DNA of 64,000 nt, taken from assembly GCF_024700885.2 (NCBI RefSeq), contig NZ_CP117016.1; one strand, given 5' to 3'. Position numbers: made by a program. This DNA is from Escherichia coli. Its GTDB lineage: Bacteria > Pseudomonadota > Gammaproteobacteria > Enterobacterales > Enterobacteriaceae. Shown here piece by piece: positions 41,401-47,400 of the stretch; the first letter of the stretch is position 1, and every line of letters starts with the position of its first letter.

Positions 41401-44400
41401 CGCAGCTCCAGTACGAATGGCACGCGTCGTACCAGGTTCTTCTCCTGCAGCAGGGGATAGTCCACCGACAAATCACCGCTACGGCCAAAGTCGCGCCCCA
41501 GGAAAGAGCGGGCATCAGTGGGGAGTGCCTCCAGCAATGGTTTCAGATACTCATCAAGCCAGTCCTGCGTCTCGCGGAAGCGAACCTCATCAGACAGCAG
41601 TTCATAACCTTCCTTGCAGGTCAGACGCAATACCGGCGTATCAGCGGACATGCGGGACTCTATCAGGGCACGGGACAGCCAGGCACCGCCACCGTTGGCC
41701 GGAATACAGTCAAGCTCTTCGGATGCGCCGGCACCGTAGAATTTGTACACCGATGCCATCCAGGCCTGCTCGGATGCCTCCGACCATTCCTTCCCGGTGC
41801 GCAGACAGACGCGCCGGAACAGCCCCTCAGATACGGCTTCCCGGAAAGTGATGCGATGTATGCTGCCTCCCTGACGTCCGGCACGGATATCCCCGATAAG
41901 CGTATTGAACGGATTGTCGTCACCGTCATGGGTGGAGATAACGCGTACCTTTCCCCCCCAGATAAGCATCGCCAGCGCCGCTTTCAGCAGTTCGTCCAGT
42001 TGCTCATGGAACGCCGCTTCGTCGATAACAATAATACCCTGACGGCCACGCAGGTTAGACGGGCGGCTGGAGAGCGCAACAATACGAAAGCCGGAGTCAG
42101 GAAATTTGATGGTGTAAGTCCTGATGTGTTTGTCGTCGTCGTCCTCTTCCCAGAATCCTTCTTCAATTTCACTGGCCGCATAGTTGAATGCCCGTGCCCA
42201 CATCGCACACGCCTGAATGTATTCGACGGTCATGTCCTGGTTATAAGCGATGTAATACACATTCATCCCGCCTGCTGGCGCAGAAGAGGCGGCGGTCAGT
42301 ACGTTATCGGATGCCTCAGCCCATGTAATACCGGTACGACGGCTCTTTTCTATCACCTTAAGCGGAGAGGTGTCTGCCACCCAGCGCTGCTGGTAAGGCA
42401 ACAGAACGGGAGGGGCATCCAGCGCCGAGGTATCAGGCAAAACGGGAGCAAGGTTATTCCTCCCGTCCATGGGACTCATCCCTTCGGGGCCGCCGCCAGC
42501 GGCGTTTAAAATCACTCCGGATGATTTTGTCATGTGGCAATCCCCAGAATCTCGCGACGAAGCGCCTGTACTGCGTCGCTTGACAGTCCCCCCTTACGGG
42601 CAATTTTCTCGGCGTTGCTGGCTGCCTGCTGCGCTCTGGCCCGTACTTCAGACTGGAACTTTTTGAGGTTGACGGACGCGCGGGACAGCGTAGCCACATT
42701 CTTCGCCACCTTCGACAGCAGGGCCACGCGTTCTTTAGGATCGACTTCGCCTTCTTCCGCCTCCTGCAACTGGACAATACTCTCGAACAGCTCGGTCTGA
42801 ATAAGGGCTATCACAGCCTCCGAACGCGCATCCTGATCGTCTGCTGCGCCTTCGGTCAGCATGCGGGCCGCTTCTGTTGCCGCACGGATAGCACCATAGC
42901 GGCGCTCAATCTTCTGTCCATAGCGATGGATAGCGGATTTGCTGATGACGTACCCCCGCTCACGCAACAGTGACTCCAGCTCGTTATACCCGCTGAAGCC
43001 GGATTCAGTCAGCGCCCGTTCAAGCCAGCGGCGCACGTCTTCCGGCAGCTTTTCTATTGTGCTGCGTCTGGCCATTATTCACTCCAGTACTTTTCCGGGC
43101 GGGCAATACCCGGACCACATTCCACGGTGTATTCCACCAGGTCTACGCCGAGGCGGGTCAGGTCAGCAAACCAGTCGCCAGAAGGTTTTTTCTCCAGCTC
43201 AACCATTTTACGGTCAGCCAGATAATCCAGTTCGCGGCGCAGTTCCAGCGGTGTGGTGTCCGGGTAGATGGCACGGGACACATCCAGCAGCAGCGTCTCG
43301 CTGGCGGTGTAAGGGCGGGTCTTGTTCAGGGCAACCAGCAGACTCCAGCGCAGGGATTCGCGGCGTACCCGGGTAATATCGACCATTATTGACCTCCGGT
43401 ATTGCGGTACTGCTGTACCACTTCCAGTTTGTTATAAAGCGCGTCCAGTTTGGCCTCAATGACTGTCTGGCCACGGATATAATCCTCTCGACGGACATAA
43501 TTCAGCGGTAAATCCGCTTTAAATCGCATAAATTCTTTTTCCAGCTCGCCCCAGTTGGAGGCGGATTGTTGCAGGGCCTGTTCAAGGGAGGCGAATCGTG
43601 CCGCCTGGCGTTCTTCTGTTTTACTGAACAACCATTTGGCGAGCCCTCCCACAAACCCCATGAAGGTGAGCAGAAAACTCACCACCGTCCAGAATTCAAC
43701 CTGCAGTGTCATTTCTGTAATCCTTCCCGTTCATCCAGCAGCGCGTTTATCTGGTTCCGCCAGCGACGACATTGCCATGCGTTGTCGATGATGTTGGCGA
43801 GAACGTCACGCTGGGAGACACCCGAATCGCGTAACCGGGTGTCAGTGGTTTCAGGTTGCCCGGTCGCTGTGCCAGAGCGGGTGCCAGTGGCGGCAACTGA
43901 GTCTGAATGACCGGTGTCGACGGATGCGTTGTCATATCCGAGTGCGGCGTTGTACTGGCGCACGAAACCGCGAGTAAACACGCACTCAATGGGATGACTC
44001 TTACCTTTTTCATCAATCCAGCGCTGTGTGACATCGTTAATTTGCCCCTGTAGTTGTTTGTTCCGGCTCTCCAGTTGAGCAATCTGCTCAAGATAACCGG
44101 CTTCAGCCCGCTGCCCGGCGGCCACCTGCTCCTGATACCGTCTGGCCCAGGCCCGCAGCGCAGCATTCTCAAGCGTTGCCTGCTCCGTTTTGTACGCGTC
44201 AAATGCTGACTGCAACTGACTTAGCGCGGTATCACCGTCACGCTTTGCAGAGTCATGACCACTTCTGTATCCCATGGCATACAGGCCGACCAGAAAGGCA
44301 TTGATAAGAATGGCCAGCAGAATGCCGCGCCACGGCAGCTTTTTAACCAGATGCCACACAACTGCTGCCTCCCCATGTGAGATATCGCGGTGCCAGTTCG

Positions 44401-47400
44401 CGCAGGATGCGCTGCGGATAATGGCGGTTCTCCCGCCAGCTGGCCGCATTGCGTCCGGCATTCACCGTGGCGACATGTCCGAACCAGCGGGTGCTGTCCA
44501 GACCTTTCTGTGATGCAAGCCGCCTGTCCCGTTGTACCCAGCCCAGACCACCGTTATAGCCCGACAGTGTCATGGCCATACGCTCGCAGTCACTGGCGGC
44601 GCTGACACGCTGCCACAGCCAGCGGTCATAGCTGACCAGCGCCCGGATAGCCCATGCCGGATTAAACGGCTCACGACTGCTCAGCATCGGTATCAACTGG
44701 CTTATCCAGTCGGCAGTGGCAGGCATGAACTGCGCCAGTCCCTGAGCGCCAGCCGGCGAGATCGCATCAGGTCGCCAGCCGCTTTCCTGATGCAGTTGCG
44801 CGGCGAAATCGGCCACCGGCGCAGACAGTCCCCATTCAAGCCGGGCATTACGGATCACATCATCGCGATACTGCAGCGCAGCCTGCGGAGGTTGTGCTGC
44901 GCATGCCTGGCTGAAAAAGCCGCCACACCAGAGCAACATTGCGACAAAGAATACCCATGCCATATGAACCAGAAAGGTCCCGGCGCGGACTGACAGGCGT
45001 TCGGTTCTGATGAAGACCCGAAAGGCTTCGAAAGCCAGTTTCAGGGACATGCATACAATCCAGGTGATCTGCGGCCAGTTCATGATTAAAGCCCCATCGC
45101 AACAGCCAGGCAGACCGCTGCAACAATCAGTGCACGGCGGATTAACGCAGCAGAAAACACCAGGTGAAGGCCGGTCTGTACCGGGAAACGCCCTTCAGCC
45201 ATCAGCCTGTCGTCATGTTTCAGGTACTGACCGGGACGGGCTTTGGGGAAGAGCGAACGGTCAAGCCAGTAACCCAGCACTGCTGCCAGCGTGATGAGTG
45301 CCAGCTTGTAGATCACAACAGGCAGCTGCTGTGGTGAGACCAGAGCGATGGTGCCCAGCAACAGCACTGAGGTCAGCAGCCAGCCGCTGAGGCGAGGTTT
45401 TTTAACAAGGGGAATGAATTTTTTCAGTTTTTTCATGTGTGTCTCCTTATCTGGTGGAGACAGCATCACAAATACAGGGCGCGAAGGATTTTAAAGCGCG
45501 TTAAGAGAGCCGGGGATACGGGATGTGCAGGATAAACGATGAATTATTCACAGAGGAGAATACGATATGACGCAGACACTGAATCCGGTCATCACTGTCA
45601 CCGTGTCCGGTCCTGTGGGCAGCGGTAAAAGTTACGTACTGGCGCGAATAGAGGAAGTGGTGAAACAGGAATTCGGAAACAGCGTCATTGTCGACGCCGC
45701 AGACGTGGACGGTGAGCGCCGTATGAGTGGGGATGATCTGAGCACATGGCAGAAACCACGGGCTGGCACAGTGATCAGGCTGGAGGAATACACGGGACAG
45801 GGCCTGTTGTCATACGGCGAGGAGCGTATCTGTCGGACGAATGAGCTGCTGGATGTTATATGCCCCACGGGCCGGCAACCCTGGATACTGCCCGATGCAC
45901 TGCATGCCACCATTGCGGCACTGATGACAGTTTACGATCAGGAGCTGCTCATGAAGGAGTTACGTAAACTCACTGGTCAGTCAACAGAATGTTGTTCGTC
46001 CCCGAAGTACGGCAAACAGGAACACATCCCGATTAACCAGCCTCCCCGGTTCTTCGACGAATACCTTCTGACACCGGAAAATAAAGCTGAGCATGAAGAG
46101 ATCAAAGCGGCGTTGTTCCGGGAAATCAGGAAGATTGCTGAAATGCAACTGGAGGGCGGGCTGGACAGAGTGATGGCGAGAGGAGAATGGGCATCGCTGT
46201 TTGAAAGAGTTTCCCCGGAATTACTTCCCCTCGCACTGGCTATCGGGATTATGCAGACAGCGGATAAACCTCACTTACGTTCATTAAACACGTAACGCAT
46301 AATCCGGGATACGCATTCAGCGATGACTGCATTTTCACCGGTTTTTACTGCATCCAGAAGTGACTCTTTAAATGGTACGGGCCGGGGCTGCAGAAAGGTC
46401 GGCATGGCATTGAGCAGACAGAGCGTTTTTTCCGTGAGGACGACATCAGCCGCTCCCACAGCCAGCAACTGAGAGTAACGAATATAGCTGTTATCCCGAA
46501 GCCATATCAGCGTATCAATAAAACACCGGCACTTTTTCTGGTCGTGATCAACCTGGTCCGGGATATCGAAAAAACCAGAATAAATCAAAACCTGAGGTGC
46601 CGGATGCGTGTTCAGTAATCGGCAGAATATTTTGCCGGTGAGTACATAAAAATCATCATTTAAGGAGTGCATCATGAATCCCCGATTAACGTTAACAGAA
46701 CATCAGCGCCGTGCTGAAGCAGTGAACAATGTTCTGGAAGATATTATCCGGTTATACCGCGGAGAACTGAGTGTCTGTCGTGCCGCTTTTCATTTTCAGG
46801 GAATACAAAAGCAGTTTGATACTTCTGTTTTTGCAGAAGGTATTACTTATGCCCTGGACCGGATAAGGTCAGAAAATCGCCCCGGATAATCCCTAAACCA
46901 CATTAACAGAAATCCCGCCATCCCTGCCGCATCATGAAAGAACGACCAGCCCGGCACCCGAAAGCCGGGCTGGTCATCGCCCCACAGGAATGCGCTGTGA
47001 GCCGACCAAGGTTCAGTCAGTCTCGCGAGACCTGACCAGACTGCCATATTTTTTAATAATTGTAAAAGGCTTGCAGATTATGAAAATGCAGACATTACCC
47101 ATCGTGCCGTGGATTGGTGGCAAACGCCGCCTTGCAAAACACATTCTGCCGCTGTTTCCGGCGCATGAATGTTATGTGGAGCCGTTTTGTGGGGCAGCAG
47201 CGCTCTATTTTCTTAAGACACCCGGCAAGATCGAAGTCATCAATGATATCAACGGTGAACTGGTGAATCTGTACCGGGTGGTAAAGCATCACCTGGAAGA
47301 ATTTGTCCGCCAGTTCAAATGGGCGCTGGTCAGCCGTCAGATCTACAAATGGCTGCAGATCACCCCGGAAGAAACACTGACGGATATCCAGCGTGCGGCA

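What the first reader, a model, noticed from the sequence alone, without database searches (positions are those of the whole stretch)
43709..45469. Lysis cassette with a transglycosylase-type endolysin carrying an N-terminal hydrophobic segment and an embedded lipoprotein o-spanin
The order is holin, then endolysin with an SLT-type motif preceded by a hydrophobic stretch (a possible signal-anchor-release domain), then a TM plus coiled-coil i-spanin. An out-of-frame ORF inside the i-spanin has a lipobox signal (LAVSC) and a Pro-rich body (43747..44013).
Basis: partly seen in the sequence, partly recalled or inferred. Interest (0 to 1): 0.4.

Follow-up and report, generated by a model that had tools for sequence, protein, structure and literature searches.

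The report
Mu-like prophage lysis cassette, E. coli
This is the cell-bursting gene set of a common BcepMu-type transposable prophage of E. coli: a real but ordinary cassette whose cell-wall enzyme probably reaches the periplasm through a fused two-helix membrane hairpin with a signal-peptidase-type site, not a classical SAR anchor.

Summary
On the minus strand lie, in order:
- a Holin_2-3 holin (45436..45086)
- an SLT lytic-transglycosylase endolysin (45083..44343)
- an Rz-like i-spanin (44359..43709)
- a +1-frame lipoprotein o-spanin embedded in the i-spanin (44034 or 44013..43747)

The window carries a BcepMu-type transposable prophage. It is 99.9% identical to Escherichia phage PhiKM and is present in 637 of 5426 complete E. 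coli genomes. Phage BcepMu has the same gene order, with its Rz1 already annotated, so this is a new member of a known kind.

The SAR reading is not supported.
- The endolysin N-terminus has two helices, not one.
- It is homologous to a stand-alone ~53-aa phage membrane protein (phrog_5479; a separate gene in Pseudomonas phage JBD25).
- Its second helix is strongly hydrophobic: 12% Gly/Ala/Ser/Thr, against 59% for the Mu gp22 SAR domain.
- It ends in a nearly invariant small-x-small motif (A60-C61-A62|A63-Q-P-P), typical of a signal peptidase I site.
- Whether it is cleaved could not be tested here.

The o-spanin is conserved across genera, and its lipidated Cys is C18 (AVSC). It is not annotated in the three records carrying this cassette that I inspected (one E. 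coli RefSeq genome, PhiKM, KP12).

A downstream 108-aa membrane protein (43712..43386) sits where relatives carry the DUF2730 releasin, but shows no detectable homology to it.

The parts
45086..45436 (-). Putative holin, 116 aa (MKKLKKF...), with three hydrophobic segments and a highly basic N-terminus
   Evidence: Pfam Holin_2-3 PF13272 at 1.1e-41 and phrog_1528 at 2.5e-54. It is 52% identical to BcepMu gp21. TM segments lie at residues 18-34, 38-54 and 98-114. A Shine-Dalgarno AAGGAG lies 6 nt upstream of the start. RefSeq annotates it as 'putative holin'.
44343..45083 (-). Endolysin, 246 aa: an N-terminal two-helix membrane hairpin fused to an SLT/GH23 lytic transglycosylase domain, with catalytic E100 and invariant C166 and C242
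   Evidence: Pfam SLT at 1.8e-14 and phrog_669 at 8.8e-69. It aligns with the Slt70 catalytic region. Foldseek's best matches are MltF, MltE and MltC. It is 61% identical to BcepMu gp22 from residue 62 onward. Invariant columns are listed.
44898..45083 (-). N-terminal hairpin module of the endolysin (aa 1-62), ending in WCGGFFSQ-A60-C61-A62|A63-QPP
   Evidence: It matches phrog_5479 over the whole profile: 4.4e-4 for the window sequence and 3.7e-15 for the KP12 homologue. An HMM of the enterobacterial N-termini hits the stand-alone JBD25 gp25 at 9e-7 for Z=1e6. AlphaFold2 predicts helices at 3-27 and 31-53 and a coil at 62-66. The -3 and -1 positions are A or S in 75 and 79 of 81 distinct homologues, while -2 varies freely.
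43709..44359 (-). i-spanin (Rz-like), 216 aa, GTG start: an N-terminal TMD, a long periplasmic helix, a linker and a C-terminal helix, with periplasmic C126 and C197
   Evidence: phrog_1403 'Rz-like spanin' at 4e-92. The TMD lies at residues 13-29. AlphaFold2 predicts a helix at 10-112, a disordered region at 144-181 and a helix at 183-215. RefSeq annotates it as 'lysis system spanin subunit'. It is 28% identical to BcepMu gp23.
43747..44034 (-). o-spanin (Rz1-like) embedded in the +1 frame of the i-spanin: 95 aa from ATG 44034 or 88 aa from ATG 44013. The signal peptide ends in the lipobox A-V-S-C, with Ala at +2, and the mature part is rich in Pro, Thr and Ser
   Evidence: It is conserved in KP12, Pectobacterium, Salmonella, a 65%-identity E. 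coli lineage, BcepMu gp24 (annotated Rz1) and JBD25. It is 35% identical to BcepMu gp24 at E=4e-11. It occupies 0.50-0.94 of the i-spanin length, typical of embedded spanins (PMC6139136). It is not annotated in the three records carrying this cassette that I inspected: E. coli TUM1857 (RefSeq), PhiKM and KP12.
43386..43712 (-). 108-aa membrane protein like BcepMu gp25 (N-out TMD plus an ~80-aa cytoplasmic helical tail). Its start overlaps the i-spanin stop (ATGA). It is a possible accessory lysis gene in the 'releasin slot', and its membership of the cassette is inferred only
   Evidence: phrog_462 at 1.6e-36. It is 50% identical to BcepMu gp25. The TMD lies at residues 9-25. The same slot holds a true DUF2730 protein in Salmonella relative L008 and in JBD25. 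There is no DUF2730 match by Pfam or hhalign (probability 0.3%).

Best explanation
This is the late-operon lysis cassette of a BcepMu-type (Bcepmuvirus-like) transposable prophage of E. coli.

Shown by sequence:
- A three-segment Holin_2-3 protein.
- An SLT-family lytic transglycosylase.
- A two-component spanin with the o-spanin gene embedded in the +1 frame of the i-spanin gene.
- All genes are tightly packed, with adjacent or overlapping ends.

Inferred mechanism:
1. The endolysin does not wait in the cytoplasm for holin holes. Its N-terminal two-helix hairpin (N-out, basic loop in the cytoplasm) inserts into the membrane and places the SLT domain in the periplasm.
2. The conserved A-x-A|A-(Q/E)-P-P junction is most likely cut by signal peptidase I after A62. 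This would free a ~184-aa soluble enzyme and leave a ~62-aa membrane peptide. That peptide has about the same extent as the stand-alone phrog_5479 protein of Pseudomonas B3-like phages.
3. The pre-exported enzyme stays harmless until the holin triggers and collapses the membrane potential, as described for exported endolysins.
4. The Rz-like/Rz1-like complex then disrupts the outer membrane.
5. The following 108-aa membrane protein may modulate the process. It occupies the position held by the DUF2730 releasin in relatives.
For: Family assignments:
-.

Context:
- Same gene order and homologous proteins in BcepMu, KP12, Pectobacterium, Salmonella and JBD25.
- The prophage carries Mor, a DDE transposase, ExeA, Gam and a Mu gp27-type TerS.

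Periplasmic location of the SLT domain:
- Homologues carry plain N-terminal signals: BcepMu MRVLIAFVVALLGAAAPVAA|QVP and KS10 ...SSSAHA|QVP.
- The hairpin loop is basic.
- Two Cys are invariant in the catalytic domain.

Cleavage:
- Positions -3 and -1 are A or S in 75 and 79 of 81 distinct homologues, while -2 is N, H, R, D, S, A or C.
- The motif is kept even where a different, non-homologous two-TMD N-terminus is present (P0088, P0118 and P0120 have ...KSHAA|EPP).
- Stand-alone hairpin proteins end right after GGFF. The SQAxAA junction therefore looks like the retained c-region of an ancestral signal peptide.
- The authors of the KS10 genome paper, using SignalP, reported a predicted cleavage at the equivalent site (PMC2628397).
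- AlphaFold2 puts the site in a coil between the hairpin and the enzyme.

Spanins:
-.
- BcepMu is listed among embedded spanin families (PMC6139136).

Control of exported endolysins by holin-mediated depolarisation:
- Review PMC6116005.
Against: - No experiment on this cassette or on BcepMu lysis was found.
- The Holin_2-3 family is 'putative' in Pfam.
- SignalP, DeepTMHMM and LipoP could not be run.
- The hydrophobic core of helix 2 is about 21 residues (T36-F57). This is long for a cleaved signal and is closer to a signal anchor.
- In this E. coli lineage, helix 1 carries K15, E19 and R22 (Hessa-scale sum +4.9). It may not span the membrane.
- Chamblee et al. classify the N-terminus of the homologous Pseudomonas SLT endolysins as SAR (PMC9239132).
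- A constitutively secreted, cleaved transglycosylase needs an unexplained way to stay inactive before the holin triggers.
Confidence: 0.55

Rival explanations
1. SAR-type endolysin. The N-terminal hydrophobic region is an uncleaved anchor that tethers an inactive enzyme to the energised membrane. It slips out of the bilayer when the holin depolarises the membrane, possibly helped by the downstream 108-aa protein acting like a releasin.
For: - A holin sits directly upstream.
- Chamblee et al. call the Pseudomonas SLT homologues (JBD25 type) SAR endolysins. These are paired with DUF2730 (PMC9239132).
- Salmonella relative L008 carries the same fused endolysin and has a true DUF2730 gene in the slot occupied here by the 108-aa protein.
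- Helix 2 is more Gly/Ala-rich in some relatives: 41% Gly/Ala/Ser/Thr in Pectobacterium.
- A Cys lies near the periplasmic end of helix 2 in 55 of 81 distinct homologues. This recalls the SAR-domain Cys of P1 Lyz (the P1 comparison is from my own knowledge).
Against: - There are two helices, not one.
- Helix 2 of the window protein has 12% Gly/Ala/Ser/Thr and 76% bulky hydrophobic residues, with a Hessa-scale sum of -1.0. The Mu gp22 SAR domain has 59% and +4.5.
- The hairpin is homologous to a stand-alone integral membrane protein family with 2230 cluster representatives. This argues for a stable membrane domain.
- The conserved small-x-small motif has no role in a SAR mechanism.
- The 108-aa protein shows no detectable homology to DUF2730.
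Confidence: 0.2
2. Permanently membrane-tethered endolysin. The hairpin is a stable, uncleaved anchor. The SLT domain degrades nearby peptidoglycan while still attached, in the way membrane-bound lytic transglycosylases do. The holin only sets the timing.
For: - Helix 2 is strongly hydrophobic and has a long core.
- The hairpin family is otherwise made of stand-alone integral membrane proteins.
- The closest structural matches are membrane-bound lytic transglycosylases MltF, MltE and MltC.
Against: - It does not explain the near-invariance of small residues at -3 and -1 with a free -2 position.
- Homologues in BcepMu and KS10 have ordinary cleavable-looking signals. These would give a soluble enzyme with the same mature N-terminus.
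- The linker after the anchor is only ~5-10 residues, which would limit the enzyme's reach into the sacculus.
Confidence: 0.15
3. Mis-called start. The real endolysin starts at an internal Met (for example M41) and has a simple signal peptide. The upstream 40 codons are then untranslated or belong to a separate small gene.
For: - JBD25 encodes the hairpin and the endolysin as two separate genes.
- The window has an internal ATG at M41, directly before helix 2.
- The Shine-Dalgarno sequence before ATG 45083 is weak.
Against: - About 90 full-length homologues from Escherichia, Salmonella, Pectobacterium, Serratia, Pantoea, Dickeya and Morganella keep one continuous 238-252-aa ORF. It has a conserved M-x-WPQI start and no conserved internal Met.
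- M41 is absent from KP12, Pectobacterium and Salmonella.
- The ATG at 45083 sits 2 nt after the holin stop codon, which is typical of translational coupling.
- A start at M41 would give a signal peptide with no basic n-region.
Confidence: 0.05

Closest known systems
Lysis cassette of Burkholderia phage BcepMu (gp21 holin, gp22 SLT endolysin, gp23 Rz, gp24 Rz1, gp25 membrane protein; NC_005882)
   Same: The gene order is identical. Every protein is homologous: holin 52%, endolysin catalytic domain 61%, Rz 28%, Rz1 35%, gp25 50% and gp26 57% identity. Rz1 is embedded in the +1 frame at the same relative position, 0.5-0.94. Both cassettes are followed by a Mu gp27-type TerS.
   Different: BcepMu gp22 is 203 aa with a single short signal-like N-terminus (MRVLIAFVVALLGAAAPVAA|QVP). 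The window protein has ~43 extra residues that form a two-helix hairpin of a different origin. The o-spanin lipobox is LSAC in BcepMu and AVSC here. BcepMu Rz1 has a periplasmic Cys, and the window o-spanin has none after the lipid-modified Cys.
Lysis region of Pseudomonas B3-like transposable phages (JBD25 gp24-gp29), whose SLT endolysins are classed as 'type II' SAR endolysins paired with DUF2730 (Chamblee et al. 2022, PMC9239132)
   Same: It has a homologous Holin_2-3 protein, SLT catalytic domain, Rz-like i-spanin and embedded o-spanin. The hairpin module is present between the holin and the endolysin.
   Different: In JBD25 the hairpin is a separate 52-aa gene (gp25). The endolysin has its own N-terminus (MKRLLTLGLLGLLSAC...), which is not homologous to the window's. 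The slot after the spanins holds a true DUF2730 protein in JBD25, whereas the window has an unrelated protein of the BcepMu gp25 type.
Lambda Rz/Rz1 embedded two-component spanin
   Same: Both have an inner-membrane protein with an N-terminal TMD and a helical periplasmic domain, plus a Pro-rich outer-membrane lipoprotein encoded in the +1 frame entirely inside it. Both lie next to the endolysin gene (architecture as described in PMC6139136).
   Different: The match to other Rz-type PHROG families is only weak (phrog_1327 at 1e-7; phrog_312 and phrog_8821 at about 1e-4), and there is no Pfam spanin match. The mature o-spanin is 71 aa, against 40 aa for Rz1 (PMC6139136). The periplasmic Cys residues are in the i-spanin only.
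Exported endolysins with a cleaved Sec signal peptide (Lys44 of Oenococcus phage fOg44), described in review PMC6116005
   Same: The proposed logic is the same: Sec-dependent export during late gene expression, a signal-peptidase-type site, and activity held back until the holin dissipates the membrane potential.
   Different: Lys44 comes from a Gram-positive system and has a plain N-terminal signal. Here the putative signal is the second helix of a hairpin that has its own stand-alone homologues. Cleavage is inferred here, not shown.
Phage Mu lysis system (gp22 SAR endolysin, gp23/gp23.1 spanins, gp25 releasin; PMC9239132)
   Same: Both are transposable-phage late operons. The endolysin is followed by spanins, then a ~100-aa N-out/C-in membrane protein, then a gp26-like gene and a gp27 TerS.
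   Different: Mu has no holin, its endolysin is a muramidase with a Gly/Ala-rich SAR domain, and gp25 is DUF2730. The window has a holin, an SLT enzyme, a hydrophobic hairpin and a non-DUF2730 protein in that slot.

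Membership tests
Two-component embedded spanin (Rz/Rz1 type) | i-spanin: an N-terminal TMD (N-in) followed by a largely helical periplasmic domain with two helical regions and a linker | tested here: met
   The TMD lies at 13-29 after a basic KK..R segment. AlphaFold2 predicts a helix at 10-112, a disordered region at 144-181 and a helix at 183-215. It matches phrog_1403 'Rz-like spanin' at 4e-92.
Two-component embedded spanin (Rz/Rz1 type) | o-spanin: a lipoprotein signal with a lipobox Cys, no Asp at +2, and a short Pro-rich mature domain | tested here: met
   The signal reads MKKVRVIPLSACLLAVSC|AS. C18 is the Cys conserved in six relatives (LVSC, AASC, LSAC, AAGC). The +2 residue is Ala. 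There are 11 Pro in 71 mature residues. Ala at -3 departs from the strict [LVI] consensus quoted in PMC6139136. LipoP was not run.
Two-component embedded spanin (Rz/Rz1 type) | The o-spanin gene lies wholly inside the i-spanin gene in another frame, starting at ~0.4-0.5 L and ending at ~0.9-1 L, next to the endolysin gene | tested here: met
   It is in the +1 frame at 0.50-0.94 L. The range is quoted from PMC6139136. The i-spanin start overlaps the end of the endolysin gene by 17 nt.
Two-component embedded spanin (Rz/Rz1 type) | Periplasmic Cys residues for intermolecular disulfide bonds | tested here: inconclusive
   The i-spanin has C126 and C197. The mature o-spanin has no Cys beyond the lipid-modified one, whereas BcepMu, JBD25 and the 65%-identity E. 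coli lineage have one.
Two-component embedded spanin (Rz/Rz1 type) | Both subunits are required for outer-membrane disruption (complementation of lambda Rz/Rz1 mutants) | not testable with these tools
   Genetic test.
SAR (signal-anchor-release) endolysin | A single N-terminal TMD preceded by a few basic residues | tested here: not met
   There are two helices (3-27 and 31-53 in AlphaFold2; hydropathy). The extreme N-terminus MNWPQ carries no basic residue.
SAR (signal-anchor-release) endolysin | A weakly hydrophobic TMD, about half of it Gly, Ala, Ser or Thr | tested here: not met
   Helix 2 has 12% Gly/Ala/Ser/Thr and 76% L/I/V/F/M/W. In relatives the figure is 24-41%. The Mu gp22 SAR domain has 59%. 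The criterion is as worded in PMC9239132.
SAR (signal-anchor-release) endolysin | Not cleaved, and released from the membrane by a pinholin or by depolarisation | not testable with these tools
   The conserved small-x-small motif argues for cleavage, but only an experiment can decide.
Sec-type exported endolysin with a signal peptidase I site | A basic region on the cytoplasmic side, a hydrophobic core, and small uncharged residues at -3 and -1 | tested here: met
   The loop RTERLSVR (KHGEPRTDKHS in relatives) precedes helix 2, followed by A60-x-A62. Position -3 is A or S in 75 of 81 distinct homologues, -1 is A or S in 79 of 81, and -2 is free. The ~21-residue core is longer than usual.
Sec-type exported endolysin with a signal peptidase I site | Actual cleavage, with a mature enzyme in the periplasm | not testable with these tools
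   The only support is a SignalP prediction reported by the authors of the KS10 genome paper, for the KS10 homologue at the equivalent site (PMC2628397).
SLT / family 1 lytic transglycosylase (GH23) | A profile match above the curated threshold, with the catalytic Glu-Ser motif, the GLxQ motif and the YNxG motif | tested here: met
   Pfam SLT scores 53.8 bits against a cut-off of 21.3. HQE100S aligns with RQES of Slt70. GLAQF and GYNGG are invariant. The fold matches MltF, MltE and MltC.
Holin_2-3 (PF13272) putative holin | A profile match above threshold, a small protein with 2-3 TMDs, encoded next to the endolysin | tested here: met
   It scores 141.8 bits against a cut-off of 27. It has three hydrophobic segments. 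The gene ends 2 nt before the endolysin start.
Holin_2-3 (PF13272) putative holin | Hole formation and control of lysis timing | not testable with these tools
   No experimental paper on this family turned up in the searches run here.
Releasin (Mu gp25, DUF2730 / PF10805), for the 108-aa protein at 43712..43386 | Sequence membership of DUF2730 | tested here: not met
   There is no Pfam hit at E<=10, whereas Mu gp25 hits at 2.5e-13. The PHROG families differ (462 versus 736). hhalign gives probability 0.3%.
Releasin (Mu gp25, DUF2730 / PF10805), for the 108-aa protein at 43712..43386 | An N-out/C-in single TMD with a ~75-aa cytoplasmic tail, encoded within five genes downstream of the endolysin in a Mu-like phage | tested here: met
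   The TMD lies at 9-25 and is followed by K26 and K31. The gene comes directly after the spanins. Relatives L008 and JBD25 carry DUF2730 in exactly this slot. The criteria are from PMC9239132.

The most novel reading that the evidence does not exclude
The endolysin may be made as a natural fusion of a widespread small two-TMD phage membrane protein (phrog_5479 family) with an SLT domain. Host signal peptidase I would then cut it at the conserved A-x-A junction into two products. In that case the second helix of a stable membrane hairpin serves as the export signal, and the hairpin is left behind as a separate membrane peptide that may itself act in lysis timing. This would be a third way of exporting endolysins, beside plain signal peptides and SAR domains. 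The non-DUF2730 protein in the releasin slot could be a functional analogue of the Mu releasin.
Probability: 0.3. Interest if true: 0.5.

Novelty: new member of a known kind. Interest (0 to 1): 0.3.

Why it matters
Practical value:
- The o-spanin gene is missing from the annotation of the three records carrying this cassette that I inspected (one E. coli RefSeq genome, PhiKM, KP12).
- The prophage is common, present in about 12% of complete E. coli genomes.
- The endolysin should not be labelled SAR on the basis of one hydrophobic stretch.

Scientific value is modest. The SLT endolysins of BcepMu-like and B3-like transposable phages carry at least four different N-terminal export modules on one catalytic domain:
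- a plain signal
- a lipobox-like or 'SAR' signal
- the phrog_5479 hairpin
- an unrelated hairpin

This makes them a convenient natural series for asking which features of an export signal matter for lysis control. It could also show whether the gene in the 'releasin slot' is tied to the type of signal.

Tried and rejected
1. DUF2730 membership of the 108-aa protein. Pfam at E<=10 gave no hit, the PHROG families differ, and hhalign of a 30-sequence alignment against a 22-sequence DUF2730 alignment gave probability 0.3%. I rejected homology and kept only the positional and architectural analogy. Two homologues are nevertheless named 'DUF2730' by UniRef. I did not resolve this.
2. A frameshift as the cause of the divergent residues 8-45 in the window lineage compared with KP12 and Pectobacterium. 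The DNA alignment shows plain divergence plus a 12-nt indel, with no compensating frameshifts. Rejected.
3. An internal start at M41. Rejected because that Met is not conserved.
4. C12 (canonical LSAC) as the lipidated Cys. Rejected in favour of C18. The signal would be only 11 residues, relatives have LNAC or WPAC at that position, and C18 aligns with the lipobox Cys of BcepMu and JBD25.
5. Calling the hairpin a holin or antiholin. Some Pseudomonas phage records label it 'holin'. But stand-alone members also sit among replication and recombination genes. Rejected as unsupported.
6. The sigma-70 promoter and terminator scan found no promoter-like sites and no more terminator-like sites than in shuffles. 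This is uninformative, since an activator-dependent late promoter is expected in a Mu-like phage.
7. NCBIfam added nothing beyond weak MltF-type matches.
8. The original BcepMu paper (Summer et al. 2004) and the P1 SAR paper (Xu et al. 2004) are not in the held library. I could not check what they say about gp22.
9. Synonymous-codon shuffling showed that the +1 ORF in this single sequence is only weakly beyond chance.

Full report
**What is there**

All genes of the finding lie on the minus strand and are tightly packed.

- Putative holin, 45436..45086, 116 aa.
  - The start with a good Shine-Dalgarno sequence (AAGGAG, 6 nt upstream), also used by RefSeq, is ATG 45436.
  - It matches Pfam Holin_2-3 at 1.1e-41 and phrog_1528 'holin' at 2.5e-54.
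  - It has a very basic N-terminus and three hydrophobic segments.
- Endolysin, 45083..44343, 246 aa.
  - It starts 2 nt after the holin stop codon.
  - It matches Pfam SLT at 1.8e-14 and phrog_669 at 8.8e-69.
  - Its HQE100S motif aligns with RQES of E. coli Slt70, and GLAQF and GYNGG are invariant.
  - An AlphaFold2 model (mean pLDDT 75) finds MltF, MltE and MltC as the best solved matches.
- i-spanin, 44359 (GTG)..43709, 216 aa.
  - Its start overlaps the end of the endolysin gene by 17 nt.
  - It matches phrog_1403 'Rz-like spanin' at 4e-92.
  - It has a TMD at residues 13-29.
  - The AlphaFold2 model shows one long helix (10-112), a disordered linker (144-181) and a C-terminal helix (183-215). 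This is the Rz layout.
- o-spanin, inside the i-spanin in the +1 frame.

**Where it comes from**

- The region is 99.9% identical to Escherichia phage PhiKM, which is classified in Bcepmuvirus.
- It is present in 637 of 5426 complete E. coli genomes, at >=99% identity in 470 of them.
- In the window the prophage runs from about 57174 down to at least 23321.
- In a RefSeq genome the same element carries a Mor activator, a DDE transposase, ExeA, Gam, a Mu gp27-type small terminase and P2-like tail genes.
- Phage BcepMu has the same order: gp21 holin, gp22 SLT endolysin, gp23 Rz, gp24 Rz1 (annotated as an 'out of frame, embedded proline-rich protein'), gp25 membrane protein, gp26, gp27 TerS.
- Identities to the window proteins are 52, 61, 28, 35, 50 and 57% for gp21 to gp26.
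- The BcepMu/phiE255 pair is listed as an embedded family in the spanin survey of Kongari et al. (PMC6139136).
- The cassette as such is therefore a known kind.

**The o-spanin**

- From this sequence alone the case is modest.
  - Synonymous-codon shuffles of the i-spanin give an equally long open +1 frame in 10.6% of 5000 trials.
  - They give a lipoprotein-like +1 ORF in 2.2% of trials.
- The real support is comparative.
  - The +1 ORF is open at the same relative position (0.50-0.94 of the i-spanin) in six relatives: KP12, a Pectobacterium prophage, a Salmonella prophage, a 65%-identity E. coli lineage, BcepMu and JBD25.
  - i-spanin identity among these falls to 25-29%.
  - All keep a signal peptide, a lipobox Cys, a C-x-(S/T)-T-T-P start of the mature part, and an L-(T/S)-P-G-Y-A motif.
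- The conserved Cys is C18 of the 88-aa form.
  - Its lipobox is AVSC here, and LVSC, AASC, LSAC or AAGC in relatives.
  - The canonical-looking LSAC at C12 would give a signal of only 11 residues and becomes LNAC or WPAC in relatives. I therefore reject it.
- Ala at +2 fits outer-membrane sorting.
- The ATG conserved among the enterobacterial relatives lies 7 codons upstream, at 44034 (95-aa form). In the 65%-identity E. coli lineage it is the only ATG.
- The gene is not annotated in the three records carrying this cassette that I inspected: E. coli TUM1857 (RefSeq), PhiKM and KP12.

The hydrophobic stretch is not one segment.

- About 90 full-length homologues from Escherichia, Salmonella, Pectobacterium, Serratia, Pantoea, Dickeya, Morganella and others share the same layout:
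  - a start M-x-WPQI(T/V)W
  - helix 1
  - a short basic loop (KHGEPRTDKHS)
  - helix 2, ending in WLLWCGGFF
  - then S-Q-A-x-A-A-(Q/E)-P-P
- AlphaFold2 gives helices at 3-27 and 31-53, and a coil at 62-66 just before the SLT fold.

The hairpin is a module with its own stand-alone relatives.

- In Pseudomonas phage JBD25 it is a separate 52-aa gene (gp25) between the Holin_2-3 homologue and the SLT endolysin.
- An HMM of the enterobacterial N-termini hits JBD25 gp25 at 9e-7 for a nominal database of one million sequences.
- The PHROG family of that small protein, phrog_5479, matches over its whole length. The E-value is 3.7e-15 for the KP12 N-terminus and 4.4e-4 for the window N-terminus.
- A profile search of 1.84 billion cluster representatives finds 2230 members.
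  - Among the 150 best listed, most are 52-60 aa, many are tandem duplicates of ~110 aa, and only three are ~240-280 aa.
  - Of those three, the two whose sequences I read at ~240 aa (P0289, P0391) are SLT fusions. The 277-aa one (P0269) has two hairpin copies and no SLT domain.
- Stand-alone members also occur among replication and recombination genes. I therefore do not call the module a holin or antiholin.

Is it a SAR domain?

- By the criteria used by Chamblee et al. it is not. Those criteria are a single N-terminal TMD of which about half the residues are Gly, Ala, Ser or Thr (PMC9239132).
  - Helix 2 of the window protein has 12% such residues and 76% L/I/V/F/M/W, with a Hessa-scale sum of -1.0.
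  - The Mu gp22 SAR domain has 59% and +4.5.
- What follows helix 2 looks like the c-region of a signal peptide.
  - Over 81 distinct homologues, position -3 is A (67) or S (8), and position -1 is A (77) or S (2).
  - Position -2 is N, H, R, D, S, A or C.
  - Position +1 is A, and Q/E-P-P follows.
- The same motif is present in a sub-lineage whose two-TMD N-terminus is quite different (...KSHAA|EPP).
- It is also present in other fused lineages (...STACAA|DIP and ...GQAQAA|ELP).
- Stand-alone hairpins stop right after GGFF. Homologues without a hairpin have ordinary signals ending at the equivalent place: BcepMu ...APVAA|QVP and KS10 ...SSSAHA|QVP.
- For KS10, the genome paper's authors, using SignalP, reported a predicted cleavage between residues 44 and 45, which is that site (PMC2628397).

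My reading of these facts:

- The fusion replaced the hydrophobic core of an ancestral signal peptide with helix 2 of the hairpin, and kept the cleavage region.
- The protein is probably cut after A62.
- This is inference. The ~21-residue core of helix 2 is long for a cleaved signal, and I could not run SignalP or test cleavage.
- In this E. coli lineage helix 1 has K15, E19 and R22 and may not span the membrane. That would not change the side on which the SLT domain ends up.

Three further facts fit a periplasmic location:

- the basic loop
- the signals of the homologues
- two invariant Cys in the catalytic domain, C166 and C242

**How it most likely works**

1. Late transcription produces all the proteins.
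2. The endolysin is inserted by the Sec pathway and its SLT domain reaches the periplasm (confidence about 0.8).
3. It is probably released by signal peptidase I (about 0.5). The alternatives are a stable anchor or a SAR-like release.
4. The holin accumulates and, on triggering, depolarises the membrane. This is the event known to activate exported endolysins (review PMC6116005).
5. The spanin complex then removes the outer membrane.

None of these steps has been tested for this cassette, or for BcepMu as far as the held literature shows.

**The gene after the spanins**

- The 108-aa protein (43712..43386) has a start that overlaps the i-spanin stop (ATGA).
- It has one N-terminal TMD and an ~80-aa cytoplasmic tail. 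This is the same topology as the Mu releasin gp25 (PMC9239132).
- In the Salmonella relative L008, which has the same fused endolysin, and in JBD25, this slot holds a true DUF2730 protein. The next gene there is Mu gp26-like rather than BcepMu gp26-like.
- Pfam, PHROGs and a profile-profile comparison find no homology between the two kinds of protein.
- It is thus a positional and architectural analogue only. I list it as a possible part of the cassette.

**Verdict**

- The lysis-cassette and embedded o-spanin interpretations are supported.
- The cassette is a new member of a known kind (BcepMu type).
- The one feature I did not find described is the fusion of a phrog_5479 hairpin to the SLT domain with a conserved peptidase-type junction. 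It is of moderate interest and is easy to test.

Noticed in passing
window 43386..43712 (-): A 108-aa protein like BcepMu gp25 (N-out TMD plus cytoplasmic helical tail) sits in the slot where Mu, JBD25 and Salmonella relative L008 carry the DUF2730 releasin. The neighbouring gp26-like gene swaps together with it. No homology to DUF2730 was detected, although UniRef names two homologues 'DUF2730' (P0183, P0222).
   Followed up: partly
window 44898..45083 (-); L006 2220..2378: The endolysin N-terminal hairpin belongs to a very large family of small phage membrane proteins: phrog_5479, no Pfam model, 2230 cluster representatives. Among the listed hits most are stand-alone at ~55 aa and many are tandem duplicates of ~110 aa. 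Members occur in both lysis and early-gene contexts. Their function is unknown.
   Followed up: partly
P0088, P0118, P0120 (Salmonella homologues of the endolysin): A sub-lineage carries a different, apparently unrelated two-TMD N-terminus (MTMIFYIISCVLVAAAIIASLYGAIRKACAEGAFFLVLIFLFFASMFGALSTKSHAA|EPP) on the same SLT domain. It again ends in a small-x-small motif. The export modules on this endolysin are therefore exchangeable.
   Followed up: no
L011 (Burkholderia phage KS10), about 1094..1700 of the locus, minus strand: The KS10 paper states that no Rz/Rz1 genes were identified. However, gp08 (MTRLHLLTIACCLMSAC..., Pro-rich) looks like an o-spanin lipoprotein. An unannotated ORF with an N-terminal TMD (MIDLPELDARYLRAIGAAVVVVLIATHG...) upstream of and overlapping it looks like the i-spanin.
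   Followed up: partly
L006 2375..3004 (JBD25 gp26): The N-terminus of the Pseudomonas SLT endolysin, classed as a SAR domain in PMC9239132, reads MKRLLTLGLLGLLSAC|QP. This contains a canonical lipobox (LSAC), so it could equally be a lipoprotein signal.
   Followed up: no
window about 22963..23737: The tail-fibre end of the prophage contains diverged direct repeats, at 85-98% identity and offset by about 168 bp in the BLAST comparison. RefSeq annotates the corresponding pieces as partial tail-fibre pseudogenes.
   Followed up: no
window about 57174: The Mor-side end of the prophage lies here. The flank differs from that in E. coli TUM1857, where the element is next to araH. This is as expected for a transposable phage that inserts at many sites.
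   Followed up: no
window 44925..44927 (-), endolysin C53: A Cys near the periplasmic end of helix 2 (WLLWCGGFF) is present in 55 of 81 distinct homologues but is absent from the stand-alone JBD25 protein. Together with the invariant C166 and C242, it could allow disulfide-based control as in P1 Lyz. This is speculative.
   Followed up: no
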